Below, piece after piece: positions 2,763 to 46,614 of a stretch of DNA of 64,000 nt. Every line of letters starts with the position of its first letter. Positions within the stretch are counted from its first letter, which is position 1. The translations under genes were made by a program, and so were the position numbers. A model generated the notes under the pieces. It did not search any database. It worked only from the letters and a program-made list of their open reading frames with translations, and had not been told where the DNA came from. Origin of the DNA: Opitutia bacterium. Its GTDB lineage: Bacteria; Verrucomicrobiota; Verrucomicrobiia; Opitutales; Seribacteraceae. The stretch lies in NCBI GenBank assembly GCA_002721705.1, contig PBLJ01000022.1:4482-68481 (forward strand), given 5' to 3'.

Positions 2763-2786
2763 GGCAGGTTAGGGTTCAAACGAAAA

Positions 2787-3236
2787 TCACTTCTTTTTCC
2801 AGACGAAAGGAGAAACACGCTGCATGATGTGAATCCTTTCTTTGCCATTTTTCAGCTTGGAACCGGGAGTGCTTCGACCATTGGCAACTTGGGCTCGAAG
2901 CAATTCGATCAGGCGTTTCACGAGATCCGGACGTTTAGTAGCCAAATTACGCTTTTCACCGGGATCGGCTTTCAGATCGTAGAGTTGAATGAAAGGAAGC
3001 TGCAGCAATTCCTCGTGGTTGCGCGGTTTCTTGCCTTGGGAGGCAAGGGCTTCCTTCCAAGCCAGCTCCGACTTGGGTTCATCGGCAAACGGACCGTTGG
3101 ACCCACTGCCAGGAAAAAGACGCAAAAAAGAACCAGAAGTTTCATGACGAAAAAGAATTACGGGGTTTGCAGGTACCGCAAGGGCAATGCTTGAAGAGAA
3201 AAGTTTAATGCAAACGAAGCTTCGCATTGACTCCAA
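2787..3236 (-). pseudogene. Sulfatase C-terminal remnant (no catalytic N-terminal domain)
   Basis: The 149-aa ORF ends with a typical arylsulfatase C-terminal segment (IQLYDLKADPGEKRNLATKRPDLVKRLIELLRAQV). It lacks the DD.G metal site and the CxPxR motif. There is no room upstream for the missing ~300 aa, because the divergent gene starts at 3292. It could alternatively be a small stand-alone protein (MRSFVCIKLFSSSIALAVPA is weakly signal-like). Confidence 0.45.
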
Positions 3237-5427: not shown

Positions 5428-5463
5428 CCAACCCTAACTTTACTACAAAACAAAAACTCAAAC

Positions 5464-6844: not shown

Positions 6845-9211
6845 ATGACTCTTCCACGCCTTCTCAGGATGTGTCTCTTGTCGGCAGCCTTGCTGGCTCC
6901 GATATTCGTAAACGCCCAAGGGGGCCCTCTTCGGGGATCCATCACCGAGGACCGCAAAGCTCGTAAGTTGCTCGAAGCAGGCGATGCTCGCCTGGAAGCA
7001 GACGAGAAGCAAAAAGCCCTTGAGATTTGGCAGACTGTGCTGAACCAGTTCCCACGCAGCAAAGTACGTTTCGACGCCCACATGCGGATTGGAGAACATC
7101 TACTGACCGGCAAAGGCGCTTACGATGAAGCCCGCAAGCACTTCGAGGCCGCCGCCGTGGAAGAAAACCCGGACGACGCCATGAGGGCAACCGCGACGCT
7201 CAAGCAAGGAATTTGCTTTTACGAAGGAAGAATCTATGGGAAATGCTTTAAAACACTAAGGCAGGTGATCGAGGAATTCCCTACCTCGGAAGAAGTCAAT
7301 CGCGCCTATTACTACATTGGTCTAGGCCATTTCAAGCAAGGCCACTACAGCAGAGCCATTGAGTCACTGGAAAAAGTGGGAACCGCCTTCTCCGAGAAAG
7401 ACAAAGGCATGGAGAAGGTCGAGGCTGGCAAAAGGCTTTTCGTTAAAATCGAGGACGCCGATCTCGCCATCCTCAAGTCGGGAGCGATGGTGAAAATCGT
7501 CTGCAAGACGAAGCGAGGTGACGAGGAAACCCTGGACTGTCGTCCAGTTGGGCGCAATTCGCGCATTGTGCTGGGCTCCTTGCCAACCAGCTTGGGAGCA
7601 ACCAACAAAGGCAACGGTATCCTCGAGGTAAGTGGTGGCGACGTCGTGCAAGTAACCTACGTCGACCAACACACAGCCGACAAGAAATTCGAGCAGAAGA
7701 GACTCAAGGAAGTACGAGTGGTGGGCCAAGGCAAGGCCTCCATCATGGACGGTTCCTACAAGGACACCCTGCGCGGCGTGGTCTTGGGAAAGATAGTCAA
7801 CCTGCAAGTCAATGACCCGGATGGAGACGTTTCGGAAAAACCGGACTCAATAATGGCGACAGTAAGTGTGCATCGGCGCAAAACCGCGGATGAAATAGAC
7901 GAGGAGATCGCCGCCCTTGTCGCAAAAGGGGCGATCGCTCCACCCGAAAAGGGAACCGATCCCGTCGATGCGTTGGCATTCGACGGCGAGAACGGACCCA
8001 AAATCGAAAAGTTCAAGCAGGTCGACTCCGTGACGACGTCGTTGCTGGAGACCTTCATCGAGAAAGAAACCTCGTCACTTGAGCTAGGCGAGGAGGAAAG
8101 CGCCAAGGAAGCGCCTGGTCAAGAGGGTGAGGATGAACCCGCTGAAAAAGAAGACGATCCCGAACCCGTCAAGGAGGTCGTTCAGGACAATTCCACGCAT
8201 AGCGGCATTTTTCGAGGAGTCGTTCCGATCGAGAAATCAGAAGAAGTCAAGCAGGACGGCAAGCTCCAAGCCCTCCCCGGAGACGTCGTTCGCATTACCT
8301 ACAGAGACAAGGTAAACGTCACCAAGGACGAGCGGGACGCAACCTCGGAAGCCAAGTGCATCGAAGGCAACGTGGGAGGAGTGAGAGTGACCAAAACTCG
8401 CATCGAGGATGAAGAACTCCGTCTGCGCACCGAAATGAAAACGTCGGCCGCCCTGACGGAAATTGGCAATCACTACAAGGAATTTGGATTAGCTGAAAAA
8501 TCCAAGGTGAAGTACATGGAAGCGCTTGCGCTTGCCGAGGACACGGCGAAGTCCGCCCGTAAATTGAAAGGGCAAATCCTCGAAGACTCTTACGTTGGCT
8601 TGTGGAAAATCTATTTCGCCATGGGCAACTACGGTGCCGCCACGGCAATGAGCAGAAGACTGCAGAACGAATTCCCGGAAAGCCCATACGTCGACGATGC
8701 CATTCTGCAGCAAGCCGACGTCGCGAGAGAACGCGGAGATCTCAAGGCTGCGATCTCTCTATACAAAGGGCTGACCACGCTCAAGAACAGCGAGCTGCGA
8801 GGGGAAGGCCAATTCGGAATCGCGGAGTGTTATGAAAAAATGGCCGCGGATGCAGGTCCCGACAAAGGCCAAGGCTACTCGGATCAAGCATTCCGAGCCT
8901 ACCAAACGGTTTTCGAACGTTATCCGGAAAGCGGAAGAGTGGGTGACGCGGTGGCGAAAATGGCTGAATTCTATTACCGCAAAAAAGACTACCTCCGAGC
9001 CATCGACGTCTTTGAAAACGTTTTGTCGAACCATCCGGACGCAGGCTTCCTTGACGTTATACTCTTCAACTACGGGCGATGCCTTTATCGAGTTAATCGA
9101 AAAGCCCAAGCCCGACGCCAATTCGACCAGATAATAGAGGAATTCCCCGACAGCAACTTGGCCTCCGAGGCCAAACGAATCAGCAGCGCCCTCGTCAAGG
9201 CCGGTTATTGA
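6845..9211 (+). CDS. Secreted TPR protein with two internal beta-module repeats (first gene of the ExbBD-TPR operon)
   Basis: ORF 6794..9211; preferred start is the ATG at 6845 (MTLPRLLRMCLLSAALLAPIFVNAQ signal peptide). N- and C-terminal BamD/YbgF-type TPR signatures are present (FPRSKVRFDAHMRIGEHL, FPTSEEVNRAYYYIGLGHF, FPESPYVDDAILQQADV, YPESGRVGDAVAKMAEFYY, FPDSNLASEAKRI). The central part has modules ending GGDVVQVTYVDQH and PGDVVRITYRDKV. Confidence 0.8.
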   Translation: MTLPRLLRMCLLSAALLAPIFVNAQGGPLRGSITEDRKARKLLEAGDARLEADEKQKALEIWQTVLNQFPRSKVRFDAHMRIGEHLLTGKGAYDEARKHFEAAAVEENPDDAMRATATLKQGICFYEGRIYGKCFKTLRQVIEEFPTSEEVNRAYYYIGLGHFKQGHYSRAIESLEKVGTAFSEKDKGMEKVEAGKRLFVKIEDADLAILKSGAMVKIVCKTKRGDEETLDCRPVGRNSRIVLGSLPTSLGATNKGNGILEVSGGDVVQVTYVDQHTADKKFEQKRLKEVRVVGQGKASIMDGSYKDTLRGVVLGKIVNLQVNDPDGDVSEKPDSIMATVSVHRRKTADEIDEEIAALVAKGAIAPPEKGTDPVDALAFDGENGPKIEKFKQVDSVTTSLLETFIEKETSSLELGEEESAKEAPGQEGEDEPAEKEDDPEPVKEVVQDNSTHSGIFRGVVPIEKSEEVKQDGKLQALPGDVVRITYRDKVNVTKDERDATSEAKCIEGNVGGVRVTKTRIEDEELRLRTEMKTSAALTEIGNHYKEFGLAEKSKVKYMEALALAEDTAKSARKLKGQILEDSYVGLWKIYFAMGNYGAATAMSRRLQNEFPESPYVDDAILQQADVARERGDLKAAISLYKGLTTLKNSELRGEGQFGIAECYEKMAADAGPDKGQGYSDQAFRAYQTVFERYPESGRVGDAVAKMAEFYYRKKDYLRAIDVFENVLSNHPDAGFLDVILFNYGRCLYRVNRKAQARRQFDQIIEEFPDSNLASEAKRISSALVKAGY

Positions 9212-9268
9212 CAAGCCACGCGGCCAACACGACGCAAATAAAGCAACAGCTACTTCAGGAACTTTCCA

Positions 9269-12200
9269 ATGAACCGATCAATCCTACGCAAAACTCTACT
9301 AATCGGCCTGCTTTCATTCTGGTCGATCAACGCCACGAACGGACAAGACGCCGTCGACGAAGTTTCGCGGCAAGCCGCAGACCTCGAGGGACAAATCCGC
9401 AAACTCGACGCTTCTTCCGTCGAAGGAGCAAACACCTTGCTCGCTCTGGTGGACCTATATCATACCAATGCACGGGCATTTGGCCTCATTCGAGCTGGCA
9501 AGGCCTTCGTGAAGGTCCATAGGGATCACCCCAGGCACAAGGAAATCATGCTGAAACTGCTGGACGGCCACCTGCTTGTTTCCCGCAACGAGGACATCGT
9601 CTCCACCGCCCGTCAATTTCTCGAGTTTTACCCAAAGGATGCAACCGCCCCGCAAGTAGCCCGGGAACTAGGTCAGGTCTTGGAACGCCAAAACAAGAAA
9701 ATGGAGGCAGCCAAGGCTTTCGAAAGGGCTTGGAGACTCTCCGGCATGAAAGACCTCACAAGTGGCTTGCAGGCCGTGCGTCACTTCGGTGTCTCCGGTG
9801 CAGAGGGAGCCAAGGAATGCGGTCGCCTTGCCCTTGAAATGCTGGACAAGGTGAATGGCCCCGTGGCGAGTGACCTAGGAAAGTATGCCTTCGACCGATG
9901 CGCGGAGCGCGATTGGGATAGAAAAGGAGCCATCGCCATCGGTGAAAAGCTTCTCCAAAGAAACTTGGTCCGGGATGCAAAGGGCAAAGCGGAAATTCAC
10001 TACGAAATCGCCGAGGCATTGTGGGGTACTGGGCAACGAGTGAACGCCGTCACCCACTTCCGCCGCGCCTGGGAACACCAAAGGGACAACGAATCCTACC
10101 TGCAACAATTGATTGCCCGCTCCTATGACAGTGGAGCCAAGGGTGGTCAGCTCAAGCCTTTCGTGGACGAGTACAAGAAACGTTTCTCGGGAAACCGCAA
10201 GTACCTGGGAATGGCCTTGTCGAACTTGGCTCACGCCTATGCTCGCGAAAAGCAAATGGAAACGGCCCTGAGCGCCGCGCTGGAGGCCATGATTCATGCT
10301 CCTGGCTACCGGGACGTTGCGTCGTACTACGTCCGCTGGTTGAACGAACTGGACAAAAACAGGCTCCCCGAAGCCGAACGGAACCTGCGTGAAGCGTTGG
10401 GCAAAACCCTACCGGAAAGACAGTTCGTAATTCGTTACGCCTTGGCCTTCGATCTATATCGGGATCGGCTCAAGGACGTAAATCGCGCCCGCGCGGAAAT
10501 CCGCCAAATGCTGCGACAACCTCCTACGAACGAAAGCAAGATCAACGCAGCCCTGAGTTGGTACCTGACCTCCGCTCCCGATGAGGGAACTTTCCGTCGC
10601 GATGCCGAGGAACTGGCAAAGTTCGCAGAGGCAAACGGTCACCTCTCTCATTTGAGGACTTGGTTGCAGGATTGGGCGAAGGGAACGGGGAGCGCGGATT
10701 TGGAGAAGGCAAACCGCAAGTGGTTTCGTCAGCGTATCAAGAACCTGAACAATCATCCTGAAGTGGCTGAATGGATCGCTTTCGACAAGGCGATTGGTTC
10801 CAACAAGCCGAAATCATTCATTTCTCTATCAAGGAAACTGAACAGCGAGCAAAAATTCGTACGCTTTCACTACGAACTCGGTTACGATTACCGCCACCAT
10901 GCCGGCAACAAGGACAGGGCCTTGGCCATCTCTCATTTCAAGGATTTGGCCAAGCGTTTCCCCAAGGACGCCACCAGGGCCTCCGACTGGTTGGAAGCTA
11001 CCCGCTACGGCAACGCAGGCGACCGCGTGGAAGCCGTCCGTCACTTGCTCCAGGCCGACCCCGTCGACGATGCGAGCCGCTGGCATGAAGCCTACCGGAC
11101 CGCTCAGGAAGCGGAGGACGATAATTTGCTTCGCCAAGTCCACCAGTACGTAGCCAAAGCCGAGGAGCTATTCGGGAACACCGTCTCTCATCTCAGCAGC
11201 AACGCCACCATACTACTGGACCGCAAAATGATCGCCGAGGCCGACGACTACTTGAAACGCCATGTTGGCGCGGACCCGAACAACGCCGAGTTCCGTAACG
11301 CGATCCACATTCGTCTGCGCGATGCGGATGAAAATGCAAAAGCTCGGGAGTTCGACAAATGGCGCAAGATGGAGAACGACCAGCACGCCGCTTTTGCCTC
11401 CGACTATGCGGCAATACTTTTTGCAAAAAAGGACTGGAATAATTTCATCCGGGTTCTCAAGGAAGCTCGCGACCGTCAGGATCAGCGTCCGTATCGCAGT
11501 TTCACCATGGATGCGTCCAAGCTGAATGGCTGGATCTCCAGCGTCCGTAACGACAACGAGCTTACCGATGTGGACAAGGCCCGGCTGCTACGGTCCCTCG
11601 CTGACGTCGATCTCTGGAATTATTCCCTGCAAGCCACCTTGGCCTTGTTGCAAATCGACTCCCAAAAACCAAAGACGGAAGTGGAACGGCTCAAGGCCAT
11701 GAGGGCCGCCCTCCTGCGCGCGGACAACAGCACGCACGGGTGGAACATTGGCATGGCGTTCGCGCAAGCCGCGCTCACGGCGGGTGACCATGCGGGTGCC
11801 GCCACCCTGATCACCTCCGCCCAGGCCTATGCGAACAACGTGCCAGCCACTTACCAAGACAAAGGTCGCAGCTTGCTCGCCCAAGCTTATTCAAGGATCG
11901 GCGGCATCGGCATGACCATCGACAAGGACAGCCCGCTTGCTCCGCTCATGGAAATACTCCTGCAACTACGGTTGGGTGACAACGACCGGGCCCTCGAATC
12001 CTACTTGGCCAACCGAAAGTTATTCGACAAGCACAGGGATGAAATACCAATGGAGCTTCTCCTCTTCGCCGCCGAAACCCACGTCGCAGCCAGTGGAGAC
12101 GAAAACCACGAGAGAGTGGAGGACATGCTCGCCATGTGGTTGGTGAAAAATGGGGAATCGAAGAATTTCGAGGATGAGGAAAAAGCGGAAGTTCGCCTGC

Positions 12201-15200
12201 TCATGGCTCGCAATTACTTCAAATGGTTGCGTTTCGACGCTGCCCGCAGCGAGTTCACGACCGTGAAGAATTCATTCCCCGAGGGACCGCAGGCAATTGA
12301 GGCCGACTTTGGCATTGGAGAAACCTTCATGGAGCAGAAAAACTATGGGAAGGCCGAGGAAGTATTCGACGCCTTGGCCAACAACCGAGACCCCCAAGTA
12401 GTCATCCGAGCCGAGTTCATGCGCGGCCTCTTGGCCAGCCGTCAAGGCGATCGCGATAAAGCTCGAGATATTTTCAGGTCCGTCTTGGAAAGAGTACCGG
12501 ACGTCAAATTGGCCAATGAAACGCTGTACAACTTGGCCGAGGTGTATGGACTCGAACAACGCTTCATGGATCAGCTTCAGCTCCTACGGGCAGTAGGACG
12601 CTTGGGACAAGAATCCAAGCGCTGGCACGAGCCTGGTGTCGCCCTGTCCATCGTGGTTCAAGACAGCGATCTAGGTATCAGTCGTGGCCACACGAGTATT
12701 CCCGTGAACGTACGTACGGAACCTGGCGGCGACGCTGAAAAGGTCAACCTGATCAGTGGTGGCGCAGGCAAAGGCTTGTTCATGGCGGAAATACCCACCG
12801 CCTTGGGCGTAGTGGCCGAGGGAGATCGCGTGCTTCAACTGAAGGGCGGCGACAAGGTCACGGTCGACTACCCCGAGGAATTCAAGAAGGAATTCCGGTT
12901 TCATATGCTGGGCACCAACGAAATTCACGTCGCGGCCGACGCCACCTTCGCAGCCGCCAGCAGCTTGGTCATCGAGGAAGAGGATGGCGAAACGACCTTC
13001 ACGGAGGAATTGGTGGAAAAGGAAAAGGAAGAAGTAAAACTTGTGTCCGAGGGTCGTCCCTCCAACCAGATAAAACCTGGCAACTTCATCTACCTGCGCG
13101 TACAGGATTTCGATCGCGACCTTAGTGACGAAGCCGACAAGGCATTGGTTAAACTGGAGGCTAACAGCGGTGACGAGGTAACGGTGGAGCTTTTGGAAAC
13201 CGGTCCTAGCACCGGTGTTTTTCTGGGCAAAGCGAAGACCGGCGAACTTCCGGCAGGAGCCTTGGCCAGCGACGTTTCGATCGACAGTAGCCCTCTCATG
13301 GCAATCGACAAGGATGCCGATTCCTCCTGGGTGAGCGAACCCGACGGTTCCGCTCCCAAGTCCCTCACCGTAGACCTCAAGGACGTTTACGACGTCACGG
13401 AGGTCAAGCTGCATTCCCCGGAGCAACCGAAGCCGTCGGCGACTTGGACCTATCAGGATGAAAAGGGTCGAGATCTCGCCCTCAGCTTGCAAGCGGATGG
13501 CAACTTCGAAGCAAAGACCGGAGAGGAAGTAACCAAGGGAAAATGGAGCTACGAAGGCACCAATGATCACTTTACTCTCACGCCTGCGGAAGGCAACGCC
13601 ACCATCTTCACCTTCAATTACCAAAACGGTCGTTTCGAAAAAGAAGCCAATGGCAGTCCGCATCTTCGAGACGGACGACTCGAGCCAGCCAACCAATCAC
13701 CCGTGCGAATACGGATGAAAGGCAGCCATGATGGGCGCTTCTGGTACGAGCTAGCTCGCTGGCCGGCGGCTCCGGAGGCGAATGACTTGGGATTCGCCAA
13801 GGGAGCCATGACGCAAAGAACCTACCTTGCTCCAGGCAACGTACACTTCCATGACTGGAACACCTTGACCGATCGCCTGAAAAAGGGCGAACCGATCGAA
13901 AAGATGGAAGTGGACAAGCTGGAATGGTCACTTGCCCCTGAAATCGAGGAGGCCGGTGGGAAAGGAGCCAAGACGCCGCGCGTAATTATCTGGTCGGGGC
14001 TCTATGCCCAGCATGAGGCTGGTGCCTCCCGCTTCAACGTAAGCGCAGACAACGCTGCCATTATGGTGAATGGGAAACTCGTACTCGCAAGCGACGCAAA
14101 GACGGCTCGTAAGTCACGATCAGTCGACGTTTACCTCGAAGCGGGCTCCCACGAGCTCACCGTGATTGCCTACGTAAACAACCTGAAACAGGGAGCCAGC
14201 GCGCAACGCGCCAGGGAAAACCCGAACGTCGAACAGGTCGCCATGGGTTCTTTTCGCCCCGATGACTTCGGCGAGGTCGTGAAGCAAGCAGGCGCCGCAA
14301 AGGAGGACAAGGATATCGTTGAGGTGATTCAGAAGGGATCCAGCTGGACCTTCTCCACACCCTCCGCTCACGTGCGTCACGTTCAGTTTGTTTTCAACGA
14401 ATTCATCGGCCAGTCGCTCGCCGTCAACCAAGTGACGATCAAGGAAGGCGACAAGGTTCTCGTACCTACGGAAGCCGACGTTCTCGAGATGGCCGAGAAC
14501 GACGTGCTCGAAATCAATGCGGGTGACTTGGTGACCGCCAGTTACCTGGATGAATTCGCCCGCGACGGACGCAAGAACCGCCTCCTTACAAACCAGCTGA
14601 CCGCTACCTATTACAACGCGAGCATCAAGCCCATTGCCTATGAATTCAGCAAAACCGGCAACGGAGCCATCCAGCAGCAAGTCAAGGACTTGATGAGGAT
14701 AGACCCGGGCGAAAGAATCGTCCTCGAAGTGACCGACTACGACATGGACGTATCTTCCGAAGTAGACAAAATCGCGGTTCAATTCGTCCTCAACAACGAC
14801 GAACCTGTAGATGGAGTAGCCGTCGAAACAGGAGAAAATACGGGTATTTTCAGGACGCAGATCGATACCGCGTCCGAGCCTCAGGAAGTGAAGGAAGGGG
14901 AAGCTCCTAAACTAGTGGTCAAGCAAGGTGATCGCGTGAATCTTAGCTACGTCGACCCGCAAAACACCTTTCCGGGGCATTCCCACGCACGCAAGGCAGT
15001 GGTCTTCGTCCGTGAACCCACGGAAGGATCCGTTCGGATCATCGAGACCAGGCATATTCGCGAAGTAGGCGGAAGCGCAAAATCCGTTTATCTGCCCAAG
15101 TCGGAAGAAGCTCCAGAAGTGGTCGGCTTTGCTTACGAGATGCCGCTGACGGTGGAAGTCATTGATCCCGACGCGGCCAAGGACAGTTTGTCCACCACCC

Positions 15201-16798: not shown

Positions 16799-16825
16799 GG
16801 TGACACCCATAGTATTTCATCCATC

Positions 16826-17701
16826 ATGAAAATTCCCTCACTCAAAACGGCCTTGTGGCCATTCTTGTTCGTCCAAGTGGCCCATGCTCAGGAAGGCGAG
16901 AAAACAGACGCAGCGGAACAAGCGGAGGACCCTTCCTGGCTGGAAGGCGTGATGAACGAGGGAGCCATCAAGCTTCTCTTGGACGGAGGCTTCTTCATGT
17001 GGCCTCTGCTTATCTTGGCTATCGTGGGCCTTGCCGTGGTAATCGAACGCTGGCGCAGCTTGAAAATGCTGAACGCGGATGGCGAAGCCCTGCGGCAACA
17101 AGTCATCGACTTGCTCTCCGAAGACAAACCCGAGGAGGCCCTCGAGCTATGCGAGAGGGAAAGAGGTCCCGTGGCCGCCATGCTGGCCAATGGTTTGCGG
17201 AAATACCTAGTGCTCCAAAAACTCGGGCACGACCAAGCCCAAATCGAGGAACAAGTCGTCAAGAGCATGGAAAACTACGGCGTGCACGTGGTGGCCGCCT
17301 TGGAGAGGCATTTGCCGATCCTGGCCACCATATCAAGCGTGGCTCCCATGCTGGGCTTTCTCGGCACCGTTCAGGGAATGATCGTGGCCTTCGCCGAGAT
17401 CGTGGATACAATAGGAGAACAAAACATCGTGGAAGCCGCCGCTTCCGGGATTCAAGTCGCCCTGTTGACCACCTGCTTCGGACTTATCGTCGGGATACCA
17501 GCCTATCTCTTCTTCAACTACTTCACCAGTATCATCAACGGCTTCGTGCTCGAGGTCGAGGGCACCGCGGCGGAATTGATCGAGGTAGTCACCATCCGCC
17601 TCACCTTGGACAGGCACGAGGAAAATGCCACCCCGGCAAAGAAACCCGCAGCCCTTAAACGCACCGCTCCCAAGAAAAAGAACACGAACACCAAGGAATG
17701 A
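16826..17701 (+). CDS. exbB: MotA/TolQ/ExbB-family proton channel
   Basis: 291 aa. N-terminal signal-like segment followed by FFMWPLLILAIVGLAVVIERW. Core family motif ISSVAPMLGFLGTVQGMIVAFAEI ... GIQVALLTTCFGLIVGIPAYLFFNYF. Lys-rich C-terminal tail. Lies 27 nt after the giant gene; its stop overlaps the next start (ATGA). Confidence 0.9.
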   Translation: MKIPSLKTALWPFLFVQVAHAQEGEKTDAAEQAEDPSWLEGVMNEGAIKLLLDGGFFMWPLLILAIVGLAVVIERWRSLKMLNADGEALRQQVIDLLSEDKPEEALELCERERGPVAAMLANGLRKYLVLQKLGHDQAQIEEQVVKSMENYGVHVVAALERHLPILATISSVAPMLGFLGTVQGMIVAFAEIVDTIGEQNIVEAAASGIQVALLTTCFGLIVGIPAYLFFNYFTSIINGFVLEVEGTAAELIEVVTIRLTLDRHEENATPAKKPAALKRTAPKKKNTNTKE

Positions 17702-18114
17702 AACTCAAGCGCAACAAACTGCTTGTTGAGCCGCCCGCGGGGGCGTCGAGTGACATTGCTTTCATATTGATCGTCTTCTTTCTCGTATGCGCCTCGGTGG
17801 AACCGGAGCAAGGACGCTCGCAGAACCTTCCCAACGACGACAAGGAGCAAAAGGAACAAGCCGAAGTTCCGGAAGTGAAATTGATGCCCAACGTGGTCCT
17901 GCTGGACGGGGTGGAAATGCCCAAGTCCAAACTGCAAAATAAATTGACCCAGAGGTTTGCTCAAAAAGAAGGAAAGGCGAACCGGATAGTCTCTCTGAAT
18001 GCAGACCCGGCGGTGCGATATGACCGCTGGATCGAATACACCTCCATGATCGAGACAGCGGGAGGCACCATAACTTTGCAAATCGAGGAAACCAAAACGA
18101 AAGTCGTCGACTGA
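17698..18114 (+). CDS. exbD: ExbD/TolR-family biopolymer transport protein 1
   Basis: 138 aa. The N-terminal TM segment contains the conserved Asp (GASSDIAFILIVFFLVCAS), followed by a periplasmic domain of typical size. ATGA overlap with exbB. Confidence 0.85.
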   Translation: MKLKRNKLLVEPPAGASSDIAFILIVFFLVCASVEPEQGRSQNLPNDDKEQKEQAEVPEVKLMPNVVLLDGVEMPKSKLQNKLTQRFAQKEGKANRIVSLNADPAVRYDRWIEYTSMIETAGGTITLQIEETKTKVVD

Positions 18115-18121
18115 ACCAGCG

Positions 18122-18550
18122 ATGAAGATTCCCAAGCGTAGCTTCGAAGCATCGGTGCCGTCCATGGCGATGGGCGACATCGCCTTCCTGCTGCTTATCT
18201 TCTTCGTCATACTAGCCAGGGCCCAGGACGACAGTCATCTCAAGTGGCAACCCGCGAAAGCCGAGGAACTCGAACAAGCCAAGCACCACAAGGCGAGTGT
18301 GGTCATCGACGTGGGCAACAAGTATTACTTGAACGGCAAGGAGCTCGAGAACCCTAGTCAGAAGGGCAAGTTGGACAAGAAGGACTTGACCAACAAATTG
18401 AAGGTTTTGTTGGGAGAGGCCAAGGAGGACCGCACCGTGCTCCTGAAAGTGCACAAGGAAACCAAAGCCGAACGTTTCGAGCCCGTAATCGAGGCGATCA
18501 GCGCCGCAGGCGCCGAAATCCACCATGTCCTCGAACAAGAAAACAACTAG
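18122..18550 (+). CDS. exbD: ExbD/TolR-family biopolymer transport protein 2
   Basis: 142 aa. The TM segment contains the conserved Asp (MAMGDIAFLLLIFFVILA); ...TVLLKVHKETKAERFEPVIEAISAAG is typical of the ExbD C-terminal domain. Lies 7 nt after exbD1. Confidence 0.85.
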   Translation: MKIPKRSFEASVPSMAMGDIAFLLLIFFVILARAQDDSHLKWQPAKAEELEQAKHHKASVVIDVGNKYYLNGKELENPSQKGKLDKKDLTNKLKVLLGEAKEDRTVLLKVHKETKAERFEPVIEAISAAGAEIHHVLEQENN

Positions 18551-18601
18551 CGATCTACAAACGACGACAAGATTTCCAATCAAACAAGAGAACACGTAGC
18601 C

Positions 18602-19030
18602 ATGAGCGACAAACCCGGAACCAAACCCATCGCGAGCCCGAAACGAGACCTCAAGCGAATCAGTGAAAACAGCCAAGCCGTAGTCGGCGAACTACGAGAA
18701 TTCCTTGCCACCCTGAAAGGCAAAAGTCCGAAGGAAATGATGGGATCGGTAGCCGAAAGCAACTTGGCCAAGAGCTTGGTCGTCTCCTGCTTGGTTATGA
18801 TAACCCTCCTTTTTGCCCTCAGTGCCATTCCCTACGCCATGAAGGATGGCGAAGACCAAGCCAACGAAACACCGGAGGAAGAGAGCGAAAAAAGCAAAGA
18901 GGAAAGTTCCGCGACCGATGAAAAAACGGAAGATACCAAGACGCCTGCCGAAGCCTTGGAAATCAACGAGGCAAAACCGGATGAGCCACCTGAGATCGAC
19001 GTACTGGAGCCCGACTTGTTGGATCAGTGA
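18602..19030 (+). CDS. Small single-pass membrane protein with a Glu/Pro/Lys-rich acidic tail (function unknown; possible transducer/linker)
   Basis: 142 aa. About 55 aa of basic N-terminus, one TM segment (LVVSCLVMITLLFALSAIPYA), then about 60 aa of acidic tail: DGEDQANETPEEESEKSKEESSATDEKTEDTKTPAEALEINEAKPDEPPEIDVLEPDLLDQ. No recognisable TonB C-terminal domain. GTGA overlap with the next gene. Confidence 0.6.
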   Translation: MSDKPGTKPIASPKRDLKRISENSQAVVGELREFLATLKGKSPKEMMGSVAESNLAKSLVVSCLVMITLLFALSAIPYAMKDGEDQANETPEEESEKSKEESSATDEKTEDTKTPAEALEINEAKPDEPPEIDVLEPDLLDQ

Positions 19031-20493
19031 ATCGAAATTCAGTTAGCGCCCAATTGGGTTGGCTTCTCGCCGCCTTGCTCAGCCTTGTCTGGCTTTACGT
19101 TTGGCTGGATTGGCAGTACTTCAAATGGTTCTCTTTGGAAAGCCACGACCTCCTTTGTTACGTCGCCCTCCTTCCCGTTGCTTGGGGATTCTGGCAAGCG
19201 CGGAGAAAAATTCTCTTGTTTCGCTACGCAATTTATTCGGCATGCCTGTTGCCTATCTGGCACCTGATTGTCTTCAAGTGCGACCGAAAGGGTTGGGACA
19301 ACCTAGAGGCGATCACTGCCCAAACGGGCTTGGCCATTATCTTCGTCGTTGGCTTGGCTTGGACCGTTTGGTTGGTGGACAGGCAAGCGCAACGCTACCA
19401 AGTGAAACGACTCGAGACATCCGCGCCGAAGGAAGGTTCAAGCCCCCTGCTTGCGATGCACGCATCGATGGCAAACGCCGAGGATGGCCGCCGCATATGG
19501 AATCCCGTGGACATGGATGCCTGGTTCTATGGCAAAAAGAAACCCAAACTGTACCAGTCGCTTTCGGTTTTCTTCGGCTACTTGGTCACTTTTCTGGCGA
19601 TATTCCTTATACTGATCAACCTGACGGGCTGCGAGGATGCTTTCGCCTTGCCCTCGGGCGGAGGCGAGGAAGCCCCGCTACAGCCCATGGTAAAGATACA
19701 GAAAATCATCAAGAAGAAATTCGTCCTCAACCCCTATAGCTCAGTTTATACGCACGCTCCCAACGAAACCCAGTTGCAATTGCTGGAAATCACGAAACAT
19801 GCCTACAAGGCAGGCTCCGGCGAAGGCGCTGGCGCTGGTTTCTCAAGCGGGAACAGCAGGGGAAAAGTGCACTTCATACGCTTGGAATATTCCGGCGGCG
19901 ACTGGGACCAAGGAATCGACGCCGATGAAAACATGCTCATGCAATATCACCTCCTGACGCAACACAAGGTGGCCGACGAACCGCAAACCAGGACAATATC
20001 GCAAGTCAAGAATTTCAAGATCGGGGAAAGCCCTCCCCTGCTTTACTTAACCGGACAAAAGAACATCAACGTAGGCAAGGGAGACGTCGACGTGCTACGC
20101 TCCTACCTACTCGAAAAGCATGGCATGCTCTTCGCCGACAACGGCGGAAGCCCTCACTGGGGCAACCAGTTCAAAAGCCTGATGTCTCGCATCCTGCCGA
20201 GACAACAATACATTGTGGTCCCGCTGGACCACCCCATTCATTACATCCCCTACCCCATTCCCTTTCTGCCCTACGTCGCTCCCCACGGAGGCAAGGAAGC
20301 CTTGGCTTGGGTGGTGGACGGACGAATCGTGGCCTATTATCATCCCGGAGACATCGGGGACGCTTGGGCCGATGATCATGCGGGTGTCGACAGACAAGTA
20401 TGGGAAGCTTGCTATCACTTGGGAACAAACGTCATATTCTATGCTCACGCGGAGTACAACAGATGGCTAGAGAAACGAAAAAAATCAAACTGA
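19027..20493 (+). CDS. Polytopic membrane protein with a C-terminal DUF4159-like domain
   Basis: 488 aa with about 5 predicted TM segments (LGWLLAALLSLVWLYVWL, LLCYVALLPVAWGFW, AIYSACLLPIWHLIVF, GLAIIFVVGLAWTVWLV, SVFFGYLVTFLAIFLILINL). The C-terminal domain (FIRLEYSGGDWDQG...PPLLYLTGQKNINVGKGDVDVLRSYLLEKHGMLFADNGG...VPLDHPIHYIPY) matches my recollection of the DUF4159 pattern. GTG start inside a GTGA overlap. Confidence 0.65.
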   Translation: MNRNSVSAQLGWLLAALLSLVWLYVWLDWQYFKWFSLESHDLLCYVALLPVAWGFWQARRKILLFRYAIYSACLLPIWHLIVFKCDRKGWDNLEAITAQTGLAIIFVVGLAWTVWLVDRQAQRYQVKRLETSAPKEGSSPLLAMHASMANAEDGRRIWNPVDMDAWFYGKKKPKLYQSLSVFFGYLVTFLAIFLILINLTGCEDAFALPSGGGEEAPLQPMVKIQKIIKKKFVLNPYSSVYTHAPNETQLQLLEITKHAYKAGSGEGAGAGFSSGNSRGKVHFIRLEYSGGDWDQGIDADENMLMQYHLLTQHKVADEPQTRTISQVKNFKIGESPPLLYLTGQKNINVGKGDVDVLRSYLLEKHGMLFADNGGSPHWGNQFKSLMSRILPRQQYIVVPLDHPIHYIPYPIPFLPYVAPHGGKEALAWVVDGRIVAYYHPGDIGDAWADDHAGVDRQVWEACYHLGTNVIFYAHAEYNRWLEKRKKSN

Positions 20494-22190
20494 GTGCCTG
20501 GATTCTCTCCTTTGTCGCGCTCGGCACCCTGCTGAGCCCGCATGCGGCGAACGCTCGCTTGCTGGAAGAAGAGCAAATCCAAGTCGAAACCTATGCCAAA
20601 TTACGGGAAATCGAGCGCTACCAGTTGAAGATTGCCCAAAAGTTCTACGAGGCCAAGGACTACGTGGCAGCGGCCTCGGAGTACGAAAAATTCCTCACCC
20701 TTTACGAGCGTAGTCCCGGAGGACCGTATTCCTTGCTCATGTGGGCTCATTGCCAAGTGAAGCTCCGCTTGGTCAACACGGCGATCCGCGATGGCTTTCA
20801 GTCAGTCATCGATTACTGGCCTGAAAGCAACGAGGCGATCATTGCGAATTTCATGATTGGCAGATGTCATGCGCTCAATGGCGAGCCACGCAAAGCGGAG
20901 AAGGCCTTCCAGCAGCTGCTGGAAGACCACCCCAAGCACGTCAATGCCACCAGGGCTTGCGAGGAAATGCTGGTCATCGCGGCCAACCGCGAGGATATCG
21001 AGAAACAGGTGGAGCTTTGGACAAGCCTCGTCTTCCAGACGCCAAGCAACAGGCATACCCCTCATTATGCCAGTAAACTGGCCCAGTACCACTTTCGTGA
21101 ATCCGAATTCGACAAGGGTATCGAGGCCATTGAAAAAATTCATGGTGAAAAAGAACGGGCATTCATTGAAGCGGTTCATAGCAGCGGGAATGCCGTAACG
21201 AGAGAACTCTTTGCCAAGGATGAGTCGCAACCTCGAGCCAAGGCGCTGGGCGCCGAGTTGATATCCTTCCTGGAAGAACGACTGCCCGGCGACGTTTCCG
21301 AGAAAAAGGCGGAAGGAATCGCCCGCGAGACCCTCGATCGGATCGCCCAAGTTCATGCCACCTTGGACCAAGACAAGCAGGTCATCGCAACCTACGAACG
21401 TATGGGGAAAAAGCTCGGCATGGATGACTCCATACTCGGAAGCATGGCGGAATGGCACAAAAGGAAAGACCGTAGAGAACAAGCGCGAAGCGTTTACCGG
21501 CGTTACAAGGACAAGCAGGCCGGTTTGCGGGCCGTCGCCAACTCCTACGTAGAGGAGAACCAATACGGACAGGCCCGAAGCGTCTACGCACTCTATTCCG
21601 ATAAAGTGGAAGGTCGACTCGCCATCGCCAAATCCTACCGCTCGGAAAGGAATTGGAAAGAAGCGGTGAAAAATTATCTCTCCCTCATTGCGCTCGACAA
21701 GGAACGCGAATCCAGCTGGCAAAAAAACGTAGTCGACACTTGGCGAGAGGCCAGTGAATGGGACAAGGCGATCGACACCTATCGCGAACTGCTCAACGTA
21801 GATCCCGATCGCCATTCCGATTGGTACTGGGGAATGGCGGAATGCTACGAAAAAAAGAAAAAGTGGTCGGAAGCGATCCAAGCCTATCGCCAAACCGACA
21901 ATTACCCTGAAGGCTATTTTCGCATGGCGGAATGCAACAAGGAGCTTAAGAAATGGCCTGAAGGTCTGGTGATGTTAAACCAAGCGAAATCCCACAAGAA
22001 CGTGGGAGATCGGGCGCAATTCCGGATCGCACAGTTCTATGAAATGGCGGGACACAAGGAAAAATGCATCAAGGCCTTCCAAATGACCTGCAAGCTATAC
22101 CCTAAAAGCTCTTACGCCAGCCGGGCTCATGCCTACCTTCAAACGGAGTACGGCATAAACGTAACTCTCGGTGGCTCCACCGACAAGTAA
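20463..22190 (+). CDS. Secreted TPR protein (last gene of the ExbBD-TPR operon)
   Basis: ORF 20400..22190; preferred start is the ATG at 20463 (MARETKKIKLSAWILSFVALGTLLSPHAANA signal peptide), which overlaps the upstream gene by 31 nt. TPR-like repeats run throughout (YEAKDYVAAASEYEKFL, YWPESNEAIIANFMIGRCH, HPKHVNATRACEEM, WSEAIQAYRQ, YPKSSYASRAHAYL). Confidence 0.8.
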   Translation: MARETKKIKLSAWILSFVALGTLLSPHAANARLLEEEQIQVETYAKLREIERYQLKIAQKFYEAKDYVAAASEYEKFLTLYERSPGGPYSLLMWAHCQVKLRLVNTAIRDGFQSVIDYWPESNEAIIANFMIGRCHALNGEPRKAEKAFQQLLEDHPKHVNATRACEEMLVIAANREDIEKQVELWTSLVFQTPSNRHTPHYASKLAQYHFRESEFDKGIEAIEKIHGEKERAFIEAVHSSGNAVTRELFAKDESQPRAKALGAELISFLEERLPGDVSEKKAEGIARETLDRIAQVHATLDQDKQVIATYERMGKKLGMDDSILGSMAEWHKRKDRREQARSVYRRYKDKQAGLRAVANSYVEENQYGQARSVYALYSDKVEGRLAIAKSYRSERNWKEAVKNYLSLIALDKERESSWQKNVVDTWREASEWDKAIDTYRELLNVDPDRHSDWYWGMAECYEKKKKWSEAIQAYRQTDNYPEGYFRMAECNKELKKWPEGLVMLNQAKSHKNVGDRAQFRIAQFYEMAGHKEKCIKAFQMTCKLYPKSSYASRAHAYLQTEYGINVTLGGSTDK

Positions 22191-46580: not shown

Positions 46581-46614
46581 GACAGATACCTTTGGGAAAT
46601 AAAGATCGAGGGGT

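What the first reader, a model, noticed from the sequence alone, without database searches (positions are those of the whole stretch)
6845..22190. Eight-gene ExbB/ExbD/ExbD operon embedded among giant TPR proteins, with no TonB, TolA, TolB or Pal: candidate uncharacterised PMF-driven envelope machine
Seen in the sequence: eight same-strand ORFs are separated by 57, 27, -4 (ATGA), 7, 51, -4 (GTGA) and -31 nt, so co-transcription and translational coupling are likely.

The products, in order, are:
- a secreted 788-aa TPR protein
- a secreted 2509-aa TPR/beta-module giant
- an ExbB-like channel
- two ExbD-like proteins, each keeping the TM aspartate (SSDIAF, MGDIAF)
- a 142-aa single-pass protein with a Glu/Pro-rich tail
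- a protein of about 5 TM segments with a DUF4159-like domain
- a 575-aa TPR protein

All three TPR proteins carry repeated [FY]P-x-[SHP]-x(2-4)-A-x-[YF] signatures of the BamD/YbgF(CpoB) type.

Established knowledge: ExbBD, TolQR and AglRQS stators work through a dedicated transducer (TonB, TolA, GltG/J). CpoB is the TPR partner of Tol-Pal. The myxobacterial Agl-Glt/Nfs machines combine a TolQ/2xTolR-like motor with very large TPR proteins (AgmU/GltD, AgmK/GltI).

Inference: I can see no TonB C-terminal domain, TolB propeller or Pal/OmpA domain in or next to the operon. The locus may therefore be either a strongly derived Tol-Pal analogue or a Glt/Nfs-like surface-transport or envelope-remodelling machine of PVC bacteria. 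The giants would be its periplasmic or surface track or cargo.
Basis: partly seen in the sequence, partly recalled or inferred. Interest (0 to 1): 0.82.

Follow-up and report, generated by a model that had tools for sequence, protein, structure and literature searches.

The report
Conserved PVC proton-motor envelope gene cluster
A marine verrucomicrobial genome carries a ten-gene cluster, conserved across Planctomycetes, Verrucomicrobia and relatives, that joins a TolQR/ExbBD-type proton-driven motor to unstudied membrane partners and giant periplasmic repeat proteins instead of TonB or TolA, so it is probably an undescribed energised cell-envelope machine.

Summary
All eight ORFs, their spacings (57, 27, -4, 7, 51, -4, -31 nt) and their domain calls were reproduced. 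No TonB_C, TolA, TolB or Pal domain was found in the cluster, or in any ORF of 220 aa or more in the 64-kb window.

The gene order giant TPR, ExbB, ExbD, ExbD, small TM protein, DUF4159 protein, TPR is kept in roughly 80-90% of 80 species-level genomes. These come from Opitutia, Verrucomicrobiales, Planctomycetia and Phycisphaerae. More distant copies occur in a Lentisphaeria MAG and in one MAG labelled either Kiritimatiellia or Omnitrophota.

The unit is larger than reported. An orthologous PSCyt2/PSD1 protein and a TAT-exported DUF1501 protein (3292-6741) travel with it.

The DUF4159 domain has a glutamine-amidotransferase-like fold, not vWA. It therefore differs from the vWA "force transducers" reported next to PVC tolQ-tolR-tolR genes in 2025. 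The small protein has TonB-like topology but carries only a conserved acidic C-terminal peptide.

Best reading: a PMF-driven 5:2 stator is coupled through these two dedicated partners to a CpoB-like TPR/beta-sandwich scaffold. The physiological output is unknown; a Tol-Pal-like envelope role is my favoured guess.

No paper in the searched library describes this cluster. I rate it a new variant of a known kind, interest about 0.7.

The parts
3292..5427 (+). PSCyt2 (DUF1549) / PSD1 (DUF1553) protein. The ORF opens at 3187; the probable start is 3292, just before a signal-peptide-like segment. It is a co-conserved upstream member of the cluster.
   Evidence: Pfam PF07583 (E 1e-37) and PF07587 (E 6.5e-41). 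Orthologues at 44-52% identity lie in the same position in L088, L089 and L090, and in the permuted loci L035 and L052; the two other matches (L010, L020), which lie outside the cluster position, reach only 25% (full length) and 30% (over a quarter of the query).
5464..6741 (+). DUF1501 protein with a twin-arginine signal (TRRRFLKG). Co-conserved upstream member.
   Evidence: Pfam PF07394, E 1e-105. Orthologues directly upstream of TPR1 are 65-71% identical in L088, L089, L090, L035 and L052. All other DUF1501 paralogues are 38% identical or less, including the second copy in this window at 27%.
6845..9211 (+). TPR1: a 788-aa secreted protein built as TPR, three beta-sandwich modules, then a CpoB/YbgF-like TPR. 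It is a co-linear mini-paralogue of the giant.
   Evidence: TIGR02795, 115 bits against cut-off 90.1. AlphaFold2 model with pLDDT 75. 55-59% identity even to Planctomycetota and Phycisphaerae orthologues. Co-linear BLASTP match to the giant.
9269..16798 (+). Giant 2509-aa secreted protein. Residues 1 to about 1120 form a TPR solenoid. Residues about 1130-2240 are beta modules, including a discoidin-like module (about 1340-1440) and a PA14-like module (about 1565-1626). Residues 2241-2509 form a CpoB/YbgF-like TPR.
   Evidence: Orthologues of 2405-2683 aa sit in the same position in other phyla. The discoidin and PA14 hits are below Pfam cut-offs here, but F5_F8_type_C passes in orthologue L088.
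16826..17701 (+). ExbB/TolQ-type pentameric stator subunit with an N-terminal signal-peptide-like extension.
   Evidence: PF01618, E 4e-26. About equidistant from solved ExbB (56.8 bits) and TolQ (51.8 bits). The TM2/TM3 motifs are conserved in 53 orthologues.
17698..18114 (+). ExbD/TolR paralogue 1. TM Asp19 is at codon 17752-17754. The start overlaps the exbB stop (ATGA).
   Evidence: PF02472, E 4e-14. D19 is conserved at 95% or more in 60 orthologues. The overlap is confirmed.
18122..18550 (+). ExbD/TolR paralogue 2. TM Asp19 is at codon 18176-18178.
   Evidence: PF02472, E 6e-14. D19 is conserved at 95% or more in 69 orthologues.
18602..19030 (+). 142-aa bitopic protein. It has a conserved cytoplasmic helix (ELREFL..LKGKSPKEM), one TM segment, an acidic low-complexity linker and a C-terminal peptide. 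The family consensus for that peptide is LGIGE.K.ADP..NPLD...DDLLDGLE; it is degenerate in this window.
   Evidence: No Pfam family. Alignment of 70 orthologues. Present in 66 of 72 testable genomes. Some Opitutia copies carry an N-terminal GYF_2 domain.
19027..20493 (+). 488-aa polytopic protein. It has four variable N-terminal TM helices. TM5 (residues 173-199) carries invariant Q177, S178 and Y185 and ends in invariant G201-C202. An approximately 80-residue, very strongly conserved (mean column identity 72% over residues 158-286) but unstructured segment follows (nt 19633-19881). The periplasmic DUF4159 domain lies at nt 19870-20445.
   Evidence: PF13709, E 4e-29. Alignments A1 and A3. AlphaFold2 model. 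Foldseek top hit is 4I66, a DUF4159 structural-genomics entry (E 7e-8, TM 0.79), followed by weak matches that include glutamine amidotransferase (GATase) domains among other alpha/beta folds.
20463..22190 (+). TPR3: a 575-aa secreted TPR protein. Its start overlaps the DUF4159 gene by 31 nt.
   Evidence: Present in 59 of 66 testable genomes. One cluster representative (P0365) is a DUF4159-TPR3 fusion.

Best explanation
This is a vertically inherited, PVC-wide envelope module of ten genes.

Shown:
- It encodes an ExbB/TolQ-type channel and two different ExbD/TolR subunits that keep the proton-binding aspartate.
- These genes are almost always followed by two dedicated inner-membrane proteins.
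- They are flanked by three secreted TPR/beta-sandwich proteins with CpoB/YbgF-type TPR ends.
- An orthologous TAT-exported DUF1501 protein and its PSCyt2/PSD1 partner sit just upstream.
- No TonB, TolA, TolB or Pal is present.

Inferred mechanism:
- ExbB5 with an ExbD1/ExbD2 heterodimer forms a PMF-driven 5:2 stator.
- Work is passed to the periplasm through two partners in place of TonB or TolA.
- The first is the small bitopic protein. It is a TonB-like tether without a head domain, and its conserved acidic C-terminal peptide is probably captured by one of the TPR modules.
- The second is the DUF4159 protein. Its invariant TM5 face and roughly 80-residue extended linker probably dock on the stator, analogous to the SHLS helix and motor box of TonB and TolA.
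- The glutamine-amidotransferase-like periplasmic domain of the DUF4159 protein would be the effector or adaptor.
- The TPR/lectin-like giants would form the periplasmic scaffold that reaches peptidoglycan or the outer membrane.

Most likely output, at low confidence: Tol-Pal-like coordination or remodelling of the outer envelope layers, in lineages where Pal and TolA are missing or unlinked.
For: Domain calls and the absence of TonB/TolA/TolB/Pal.

Translational coupling and spacing.

Synteny:
- Across Planctomycetia, Phycisphaerae, Opitutia and Verrucomicrobiales, plus a Kiritimatiellia/Omnitrophota-labelled MAG and a distant cluster L093.
- Counts over 80 species genomes: TPR3 59/66, small protein 66/72, ExbD pair 57/62, ExbB 50/58, giant 42/52.
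- Rearranged Planctomycetaceae loci still keep PSD-DUF1501-TPR1-giant together next to ExbD-ExbD-small-DUF4159-TPR3.

Motor residues: the Asp in both ExbDs and the ExbB TM motifs are conserved.

DUF4159 protein:
- The TM5 + linker is the most conserved part (mean column identity 72%).
- AlphaFold2 predicts it as disordered when modelled alone, as expected for a segment that folds on a partner.
- This segment is only ever found fused to DUF4159, while the N-terminal membrane part varies.
- A DUF4159-TPR3 fusion exists.

Small protein: its three-part layout and conserved C-terminal peptide are seen.

TPR proteins: TPR1 is 55-59% identical between phyla. CpoB-type TPR scores are above the NCBIfam cut-off.

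Literature: PMC12204202 shows that PVC tolQ-tolR-tolR loci can use non-TonB transducers and reports no pal in Planctomycetes.
Against: - No experiment and no complex prediction links either partner protein to the stator.
- Neither TM helix carries the His of the SHLS motif.
- The only similarity to the published vWA transducers is a 33-column post-TM motif at E 0.067, which is not significant.
- The function of the DUF4159 fold is unknown; the closest structure is an unannotated structural-genomics entry.
- Lectin-like domain calls in the giant are below Pfam cut-offs in this copy.
- Some genomes keep only DUF4159-TPR3 without adjacent motor genes (L060, L063, L071).
- Opitutia genomes also have a second ExbB-ExbD-PD40 cluster nearby, so a Tol-like function may already be covered.
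- Operon status is inferred from spacing only; the promoter/terminator scan was uninformative.
Confidence: 0.6

Rival explanations
1. It is an ordinary TonB or Tol energiser. This ExbB-ExbD-ExbD powers TonB-dependent transporters or a Tol system through a TonB or TolA encoded elsewhere, and the TPR, DUF4159 and small genes are merely neighbours.
For: - ExbB and ExbD are generic family members, equidistant from solved ExbB and TolQ.
- Verrucomicrobia are reported to have TonB (PMC12204202).
- exbB-exbD-exbD arrangements with a tonB are known in other phyla (own knowledge).
Against: - Linkage to the non-motor genes is conserved across phyla in most of 80 genomes, with overlapping start and stop codons.
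- No TonB_C or TBDT gene lies in or near the cluster.
- The same cluster occurs in Planctomycetota. For the representative examined there, PMC12204202 lists only a possible tolB and cites Witwinowski et al. for the absence of pal.
Confidence: 0.12
2. It is an Agl-Glt/Nfs-like surface-transport machine for gliding or coat transport. The giants would serve as a periplasmic track or as cargo.
For: It has the same motor stoichiometry of genes (one TolQ-like, two TolR-like) and large TPR proteins. There is a weak NCBIfam GltE hit. PMC12204202 speculates on gliding for the vWA loci.
Against: - The GltE hit scores 18 bits against a cut-off of 225.
- No TonB_C-type GltG/J, no outer-membrane beta-barrel genes and no cytoplasmic AglZ/MglA-like genes are in the cluster.
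- The cluster is single-copy and housekeeping-like across planktonic marine Opitutales and budding Planctomycetes, which are not known to glide (own knowledge).
Confidence: 0.1
3. It is a PMF-energised system for capture, uptake or processing of macromolecules such as polysaccharides. Lectin-like modules of the giant would bind glycans, and the DUF1501 (alkaline-phosphatase-superfamily) enzyme with its PSCyt2/PSD1 partner would process them.
For: - Discoidin-like and PA14-like modules are present in the giant.
- The DUF1501 + PSCyt2/PSD1 pair is co-conserved.
- The window is rich in sulfatases and further PSCyt/DUF1501 modules.
Against: - No outer-membrane channel gene is in the cluster.
- Sequence conservation is very high and the cluster is single-copy, which is unlike substrate-specific uptake loci.
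- Genomic neighbours differ between genomes: ribosomal genes, lpx genes, ftsK.
Confidence: 0.15
4. It is a member of the published family of vWA force transducers that lie next to PVC tolQ-tolR-tolR genes.
For: The gene order is similar (TPR genes, tolQ-like, two tolR-like, then membrane-anchored proteins with a globular periplasmic domain). A shared VKVQ..KK motif follows the TM helix.
Against: - The C-terminal domain is DUF4159 with a glutamine-amidotransferase-like fold, not vWA.
- The protein has five TM helices and no SHLS histidine.
- hhalign gives E 0.067 over 33 columns only.
- The Tichowtungia ExbB scores 67 bits against ours, whereas orthologues score 270-470 bits.
- The TM5-linker profile finds only DUF4159 proteins among 1.84 billion representatives.
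Confidence: 0.03

Closest known systems
Tol-Pal system (TolQ-TolR-TolA-TolB-Pal-CpoB)
   Same: It has a TolQ/ExbB-type channel and TolR/ExbD-type subunits with the TM Asp. TPR modules score above the NCBIfam tol_pal_ybgF (CpoB) cut-off in two proteins. An envelope location is predicted.
   Different: There is no TolA, TolB or Pal. It has two different TolR-like subunits. The CpoB-like TPRs are the ends of 788-aa and 2509-aa multidomain proteins. It has extra DUF4159, small bitopic, DUF1501 and PSCyt2/PSD1 components.
vWA "force transducer" loci of PVC bacteria (Williams-Jones et al. 2025, PMC12204202; e.g. Tichowtungia aerotolerans)
   Same: The layout is TPR genes, a tolQ-like gene, two heterologous tolR-like genes, then inner-membrane-anchored proteins with a disordered linker and a non-TonB globular periplasmic domain. 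Function is unknown in both.
   Different: The C-terminal domain is DUF4159 (glutamine-amidotransferase-like), not vWA. The anchor is polytopic and lacks the SHLS His. A separate head-less tether protein is present. It has a giant 2.5-kaa protein and the DUF1501/PSCyt pair. The motors are not orthologous (67 bits).
ExbB-ExbD-TonB
   Same: It has a 5:2-type stator gene set. The small protein has the topology of TonB domains I and II: a TM helix followed by an extended, charged or Pro/Ala-rich periplasmic linker.
   Different: It has no TonB C-terminal domain, no SHLS His and no TonB-dependent receptor. The small protein has a conserved ~55-residue cytoplasmic part and ends in a short acidic peptide.
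Myxococcus Agl-Glt / Nfs
   Same: One TolQ-like plus two TolR-like motor genes are associated with large TPR proteins.
   Different: None of the Glt-specific components (GltG/J, outer-membrane barrels, GltD/E orthologues) is detectable. The phyla differ, and no motility is known in these lineages.
DUF1501 / PSCyt-PSD modules of PVC genomes (Kamneva et al. 2012, PMC3542564)
   Same: The two upstream genes are a typical PSCyt2/PSD1 + TAT-DUF1501 pair.
   Different: This particular pair is a distinct orthologous lineage (65-71% identity, against 38% or less for paralogues). It is physically tied to the motor/TPR cluster. That link was not found in the paper: a term search of its text for ExbB, ExbD, MotA, TPR and "biopolymer" returned nothing.

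Membership tests
Tol-Pal | TolQ/TolR-type inner-membrane motor | tested here: met
   PF01618 and PF02472 are above their cut-offs. The TIGR tolQ and tolR equivalog scores are below their cut-offs, so the match is generic MotA/ExbB/TolQ family only.
Tol-Pal | TolA (TM helix with SHLS motif plus TolA_III/TonB_C-like C-terminal domain) | tested here: not met
   No TolA or TonB_C hit at E<=0.1 in any of the eight proteins. No His is present in the candidate TM helices.
Tol-Pal | TolB beta-propeller and Pal (OmpA-like lipoprotein) in the locus | tested here: not met
   None is in the cluster, and none appeared among the 30 other window ORFs scanned (nearly all non-nested ORFs of 220 aa or more; Pal-sized short ORFs were not scanned). 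The rest of the genome could not be tested.
Tol-Pal | CpoB/YbgF TPR protein | tested here: inconclusive
   TIGR02795 is above its cut-off as a domain in TPR1 and in the giant. The full-length CpoB model NF008068 is far below its cut-off (50 and 78 bits against 383).
TonB system | TonB C-terminal domain and a TonB-dependent receptor | tested here: not met
   No PF03544/TonB_C or TBDR hit in the cluster or the window.
Agl-Glt / Nfs | One TolQ-like plus two TolR-like motor subunits | tested here: met
   This is layout only; orthology to AglRQS was not tested.
Agl-Glt / Nfs | Glt-specific periplasmic and outer-membrane components (GltD/E, GltG/J, GltA/B/H/K) | tested here: not met
   The only hit is NF033758 GltE at 18 bits against a cut-off of 225. 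No TonB_C or barrel proteins are present.
vWA force transducers (PMC12204202) | Single TM helix with the SHLS motif and its conserved His | tested here: not met
   The protein has five TM helices. The invariant residues of TM5 are Q177, S178 and Y185, with no His.
vWA force transducers (PMC12204202) | von Willebrand A C-terminal domain | tested here: not met
   Pfam assigns DUF4159. Foldseek's top hit is 4I66 (DUF4159), followed by weak matches that include GATase domains, and there is no vWA among the hits. hhalign against the Tichowtungia protein gives E 0.067.
5:2 ion-driven motors (MotAB/ExbBD/TolQR superfamily) | MotA/ExbB/TolQ channel subunit plus a MotB/ExbD/TolR-type partner with an essential TM Asp | tested here: met
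   The 5:2 stoichiometry and rotation cannot be tested with these tools.
DUF4159 (PF13709) | Match to the family profile and fold | tested here: met
   102 bits against a cut-off of 25.9. TM-score 0.79 to 4I66.

The most novel reading that the evidence does not exclude
The small head-less tether and the TM5-linker-DUF4159 protein together define a new class of transducers for TolQR/ExbBD-type motors. Under this reading the ten-gene module is the PVC replacement for Tol-Pal: a PMF-driven machine, possibly essential, that links the inner membrane, peptidoglycan and outer membrane during growth or division.

A sharper variant concerns the DUF4159 domain of this clade. It has invariant Ser375 and Asp442 and near-invariant His439 at the topological positions of the Cys-His-Glu triad of class-I amidotransferases. 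It could therefore be a periplasmic hydrolase whose access to its envelope substrate is gated mechanically by the motor.
Probability: 0.3. Interest if true: 0.88.

Novelty: new variant of a known kind. Interest (0 to 1): 0.7.

Why it matters
How Planctomycetes and their relatives energise and coordinate their outer envelope layers is open. PMC12204202, citing Witwinowski et al., reports no pal in Planctomycetes and lists only a possible tolB for the planctomycete it examined. Many of these bacteria also lack FtsZ (own knowledge).

This is a single-copy, phylum-spanning cluster built around a TolQR-like motor with its own partner proteins. It gives a concrete set of ten genes to test for that role.

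It would widen the repertoire of proteins that 5:2 motors can drive beyond TonB, TolA, GldM-type and the recently proposed vWA proteins.

It also gives the first functional context for three unknowns: DUF4159, a 2.5-kaa "giant gene" family, and one specific lineage of the very abundant DUF1501/PSCyt modules of PVC genomes.

Tried and rejected
- **Identity with the vWA transducer family.** Rejected on fold, TM topology, hhalign (E 0.067) and non-orthologous motors.
- **A swappable motor-binding module.** I asked whether the TM5-linker occurs on other head domains. A profile search of 1.84 billion representatives found only DUF4159 proteins: 178 clusters, and all 16 checked carry DUF4159.
- **Fold search of the TPR1 model.** It returned only generic TPR matches, so the beta modules remain unassigned. 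Pfam on the beta-module segments gave nothing above cut-off.
- **Promoter/terminator scan.** Not different from shuffled sequence and uninformative. Rfam found nothing in the window.
- **Kamneva 2012 "conserved PVC module".** Checked; it is the DUF1501/PSCyt module and the paper does not mention ExbBD.
- **Literature searches.** Searches for DUF4159, and for Planctomycetes with ExbB/ExbD/TolQ/TolR, found no description of this cluster.
- **Lipobox reading of the invariant G201-C202.** It could not be separated from a C202-C462 disulfide, because these are the only two periplasmic Cys and both are invariant. No model coordinates were available to measure distances.
It is not reproduced beyond one match.

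Full report
**Observation**

- 6845-9211
- 9269-16798
- 16826-17701
- 17698-18114
- 18122-18550
- 18602-19030
- 19027-20493
- 20463-22190

The spacings are exactly as stated: 57, 27, -4 (ATGA), 7, 51, -4 (GTGA) and -31 nt.

Pfam and NCBIfam confirm the domain calls:
- an ExbB/TolQ-type channel (PF01618, E 4e-26)
- two ExbD/TolR proteins (PF02472)
- a C-terminal DUF4159 domain in the 488-aa protein (PF13709, E 4e-29)
- TPR_6/YbgF/BamD-type repeats in the three TPR proteins

The NCBIfam tol_pal_ybgF model is exceeded in the 788-aa protein (115 bits) and the 2509-aa protein (137 bits), against a cut-off of 90.1.

No TonB_C, TolA, TolB or Pal/OmpA domain is detected in the eight proteins at E<=0.1. 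None is detected in the 30 other ORFs scanned in the 64-kb window, which cover nearly all non-nested ORFs of 220 aa or more; short ORFs of TonB or Pal size that fall below 220 aa were not scanned.

One detail does not hold. A version with spacing x(4-6) matches 3, 3 and 0 times in the three proteins.

The window comes from a marine Opitutales-like verrucomicrobium. Supporting observations:
- a 100% identical TPR1 in Tara data
- nearest genome hits in Opitutia
- a neighbourhood rich in sulfatases and PSCyt/DUF1501 modules

**Conservation**

The DUF4159 protein has hundreds of close homologues at 45-63% identity in Opitutia, Verrucomicrobiales, Planctomycetaceae, Pirellulaceae and Phycisphaeraceae.

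Gene context was read in three ways: from called genes, from six-frame ORFs of 80 species-representative genomes searched with the window proteins, and from counts.

| Component | Present / testable genomes |
|---|---|
| terminal TPR | 59 / 66 |
| small protein | 66 / 72 |
| ExbD pair | 57 / 62 |
| ExbB | 50 / 58 |
| giant | 42 / 52 |

Most exceptions are rearrangements rather than losses. In several Planctomycetaceae the order is ExbD-ExbD-small-DUF4159-TPR3-PSD-DUF1501-TPR1-giant.

A much more distant DUF4159 homologue still sits in the order giant (2683 aa), 128 aa, ExbB, ExbD, ExbD, 159 aa, DUF4159, 417 aa (L093). Another distant homologue is from a Lentisphaeria MAG.

TPR1 is the best-conserved component, at 55-59% identity between phyla.

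**The unit is larger than reported**

Two further genes lie directly upstream on the same strand: a PSCyt2/PSD1 protein (about 3292-5427) and a twin-arginine DUF1501 protein (5464-6741). The same pair precedes TPR1 in L088, L089 (Phycisphaeraceae) and L090. It lies between TPR3 and TPR1 in the permuted loci L035 and L052.

These DUF1501 copies are 65-71% identical to the window copy. Every other DUF1501 paralogue is 38% identical or less, including a second one in this window at 27%. This is therefore a specific orthologous lineage that travels with the cluster. One locus, L091, lacks the pair.

Kamneva et al. 2012 (PMC3542564) described DUF1501/PSCyt modules in PVC genomes, but not this link.

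**Anatomy of the parts**

*Motor.* Both ExbD paralogues keep the TM Asp (D19 in each) in at least 95% of 60 and 69 orthologues. The ExbB TM2/TM3 motifs are conserved. ExbB is about equally distant from solved ExbB and TolQ structures.

*Small protein.* The family shares four elements:
- a conserved cytoplasmic helix (ELREFL..LKGKSPKEMLG)
- one TM segment
- a variable acidic/Ala/Pro linker
- a conserved C-terminal peptide (LGIGE.K.ADP..NPLD...DDLLDGLE-COOH)

Some Opitutia copies add an N-terminal GYF_2 domain. The protein thus has the topology of TonB/TolA domains I and II but no head domain.

*DUF4159 protein.* AlphaFold2 (pLDDT 73) gives the following:
- four N-terminal TM helices
- a fifth TM helix at residues 173-199
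- an unstructured stretch at residues 201-278
- an alpha/beta domain

The "unstructured" stretch together with TM5 is the most conserved part of the protein. Mean column identity is 72%. Invariant residues are Q177, S178, Y185, G201, C202, P209 and GGG; VKVQKVIKKKFV.NP is the alignment consensus of the following segment.

Foldseek places the C-terminal domain with 4I66, an unannotated DUF4159 structure (E 7e-8, TM 0.79), and then with weak matches that include glutamine amidotransferase domains among other alpha/beta folds. It does not place it with vWA domains.

A profile of TM5 + linker finds only 178 clusters among 1.84 billion representatives. All 16 that I checked carry DUF4159. Their N-terminal membrane regions vary, and some contain TM2-domain expansions. 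One representative is fused to TPR3.

*TPR1 and the giant.* TPR1 is TPR, three beta modules, then TPR, and it is a co-linear short paralogue of the giant. The giant is a roughly 1100-residue TPR solenoid, then roughly 1100 residues of beta modules, then a CpoB-like TPR end. The beta modules include discoidin-like and PA14-like ones, both sub-threshold in this copy.

**Relation to what is known**

Williams-Jones et al. 2025 (PMC12204202) report that some PVC bacteria lack recognisable TolA or TonB and instead carry vWA-domain "force transducers". [quoted passage not shown] Their function is unknown.

I retrieved their Tichowtungia locus. Its order is TPR, 110 aa, vWA, TPR, 262 aa, ExbB, ExbD, ExbD, vWA, vWA. 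It has no giant and no DUF4159. Its ExbB scores 67 bits against ours, whereas orthologues score 270-470 bits.

Profile comparison of the vWA transducer with the DUF4159 family gives only a 33-column match, over a VKVQ..KK motif that follows the TM helix in both. At E 0.067 this is suggestive but not significant.

The present cluster is therefore an analogous and probably related kind of system, but not the published one. "DUF4159" occurs in no paper of the searched library other than a Pfam release note, and it does not occur in that paper's supplements. Searches combining Planctomycetes with ExbB/ExbD/TolQ/TolR found no description of the cluster.

**Mechanism**

What is shown is the gene content, the conservation and the predicted folds. 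The rest is inference.

I infer that ExbB5 with an ExbD1/ExbD2 heterodimer forms a PMF-driven stator. The 5:2 architecture comes from established knowledge of ExbBD, TolQR and MotAB. It was not tested here.

I infer that the two proteins encoded immediately downstream are its dedicated partners:
- The DUF4159 protein's invariant TM5 face and extended linker are the best candidates for docking on ExbB and ExbD. This is analogous to the SHLS helix and the "motor box" beta-strand of TonB and TolA (PMC12204202).
- The small protein's acidic C-terminal peptide is a plausible ligand for one of the TPR modules, by analogy with EEVD-TPR recognition (own knowledge).

The three secreted TPR/beta-sandwich proteins would be the periplasmic scaffold.

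The output is unknown. I favour a Tol-Pal-like role in coordinating or remodelling the outer envelope layers, for three reasons: the CpoB-type TPRs, the housekeeping-like single-copy conservation, and the reported absence of pal in Planctomycetes. I hold this at low confidence.

The rivals are an ordinary TonB/Tol energiser, a Glt-like transport machine and a glycan capture or uptake system. They are laid out with their evidence in the rival-explanations section.

**Open points**

- The invariant G201-C202 at the end of TM5 resembles a lipobox preceded by a Lys-rich n-region. This would imply an internal lipoprotein signal peptide. However, C202 and C462 are the only two periplasmic cysteines and both are invariant, so a disulfide is an equally good reading.
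- Invariant Ser375 and Asp442 and near-invariant (at least 90%) His439 occupy the topological positions of the amidotransferase triad. They are not conserved in 4I66. This is a lead, not a finding.
- The window's own lineage has degenerate versions of both the YEMPAGGGE motif and the small protein's C-terminal motif. This is compatible with co-variation of interacting motifs, but it is a single observation.

**Verdict**

This is a conserved, apparently undescribed PVC variant of the TolQR/ExbBD-driven envelope machines, with novel candidate transducers. I rate novelty as a new variant of a known kind and interest at 0.7.

Noticed in passing
window 28920-33238 (-) and 45090-49380 (-): There are two further PSCyt/PSD modules in the same window. 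One is a 1010-aa PSCyt1/PSD2-5/PSCyt3 + PA14 protein with a DUF1552 (HXXSHH) partner. The other is a 921-aa PSCyt1/PSCyt2/PSD1 + PA14 protein with a second DUF1501 (27% identical to the cluster-linked one). At least seven sulfatase genes are scattered through the window.
   Followed up: partly
L005/L006 18221-22028 (-), L022 17408-20750 (-): In Opitutia genomes a second, different motor cluster lies about 5 kb downstream of TPR3 on the other strand. It runs TPR protein (over 1000 aa), ExbB, a single ExbD, a 1268-1299-aa PD40 (TolB-like repeat) protein, then a 143-aa protein. It may be a Tol-like system in the same genomes.
   Followed up: no
L005 9195-9911, also L022, L057, L067, L078: Some Opitutia orthologues of the small bitopic protein carry an N-terminal cytoplasmic GYF_2 domain (PF14237). 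This hints at a cytoplasmic interaction or regulatory input.
   Followed up: no
P0365, P0373, P0369 (cluster representatives): P0365 (1001 aa) is a DUF4159-TPR3 fusion, which could be a true fusion or a gene-calling artefact. P0373 (1881 aa) and P0369 (1044 aa) have greatly expanded N-terminal membrane regions with TM2 domains ahead of the conserved TM5-linker-DUF4159 core.
   Followed up: partly
L014 (JBLIND010000003.1) / P0322: The same 64,275-bp contig is labelled Candidatus Omnitrophota in the genome collection and Kiritimatiellia in the NCBI protein name. Its phylum assignment is uncertain, although it carries the full cluster.
   Followed up: no
window 18953-19027 and 19633-19665: The window's lineage is degenerate in two places relative to the family consensus. 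The small protein's C-terminal motif reads LEINEAKPDEPPEIDVLEPDLLDQ against the consensus LGIGE.K.ADP..NPLD...DDLLDGLE. The DUF4159 linker reads DAFALPSGGGE against the consensus E[IL]YEMPAGGGE. The two changes may be correlated.
   Followed up: no
window 429-3236 (-): A 777-aa SASA esterase + sulfatase fusion ORF (429-2762) lies on the minus strand. Just upstream of it on that strand is a 149-aa ORF (2787-3236) whose sequence looks like a sulfatase C-terminal end. This may be a split or frameshifted gene.
   Followed up: no
L087 (Tichowtungia aerotolerans CP047593.1, 3743679-3765109): The published vWA-transducer locus contains more than was described. It has two large TPR proteins (904 and 938 aa), a third 781-aa vWA protein and two small unannotated genes upstream of ExbB-ExbD-ExbD-vWA-vWA. 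Its TPR proteams weakly match the giant (49-57 bits).
   Followed up: partly
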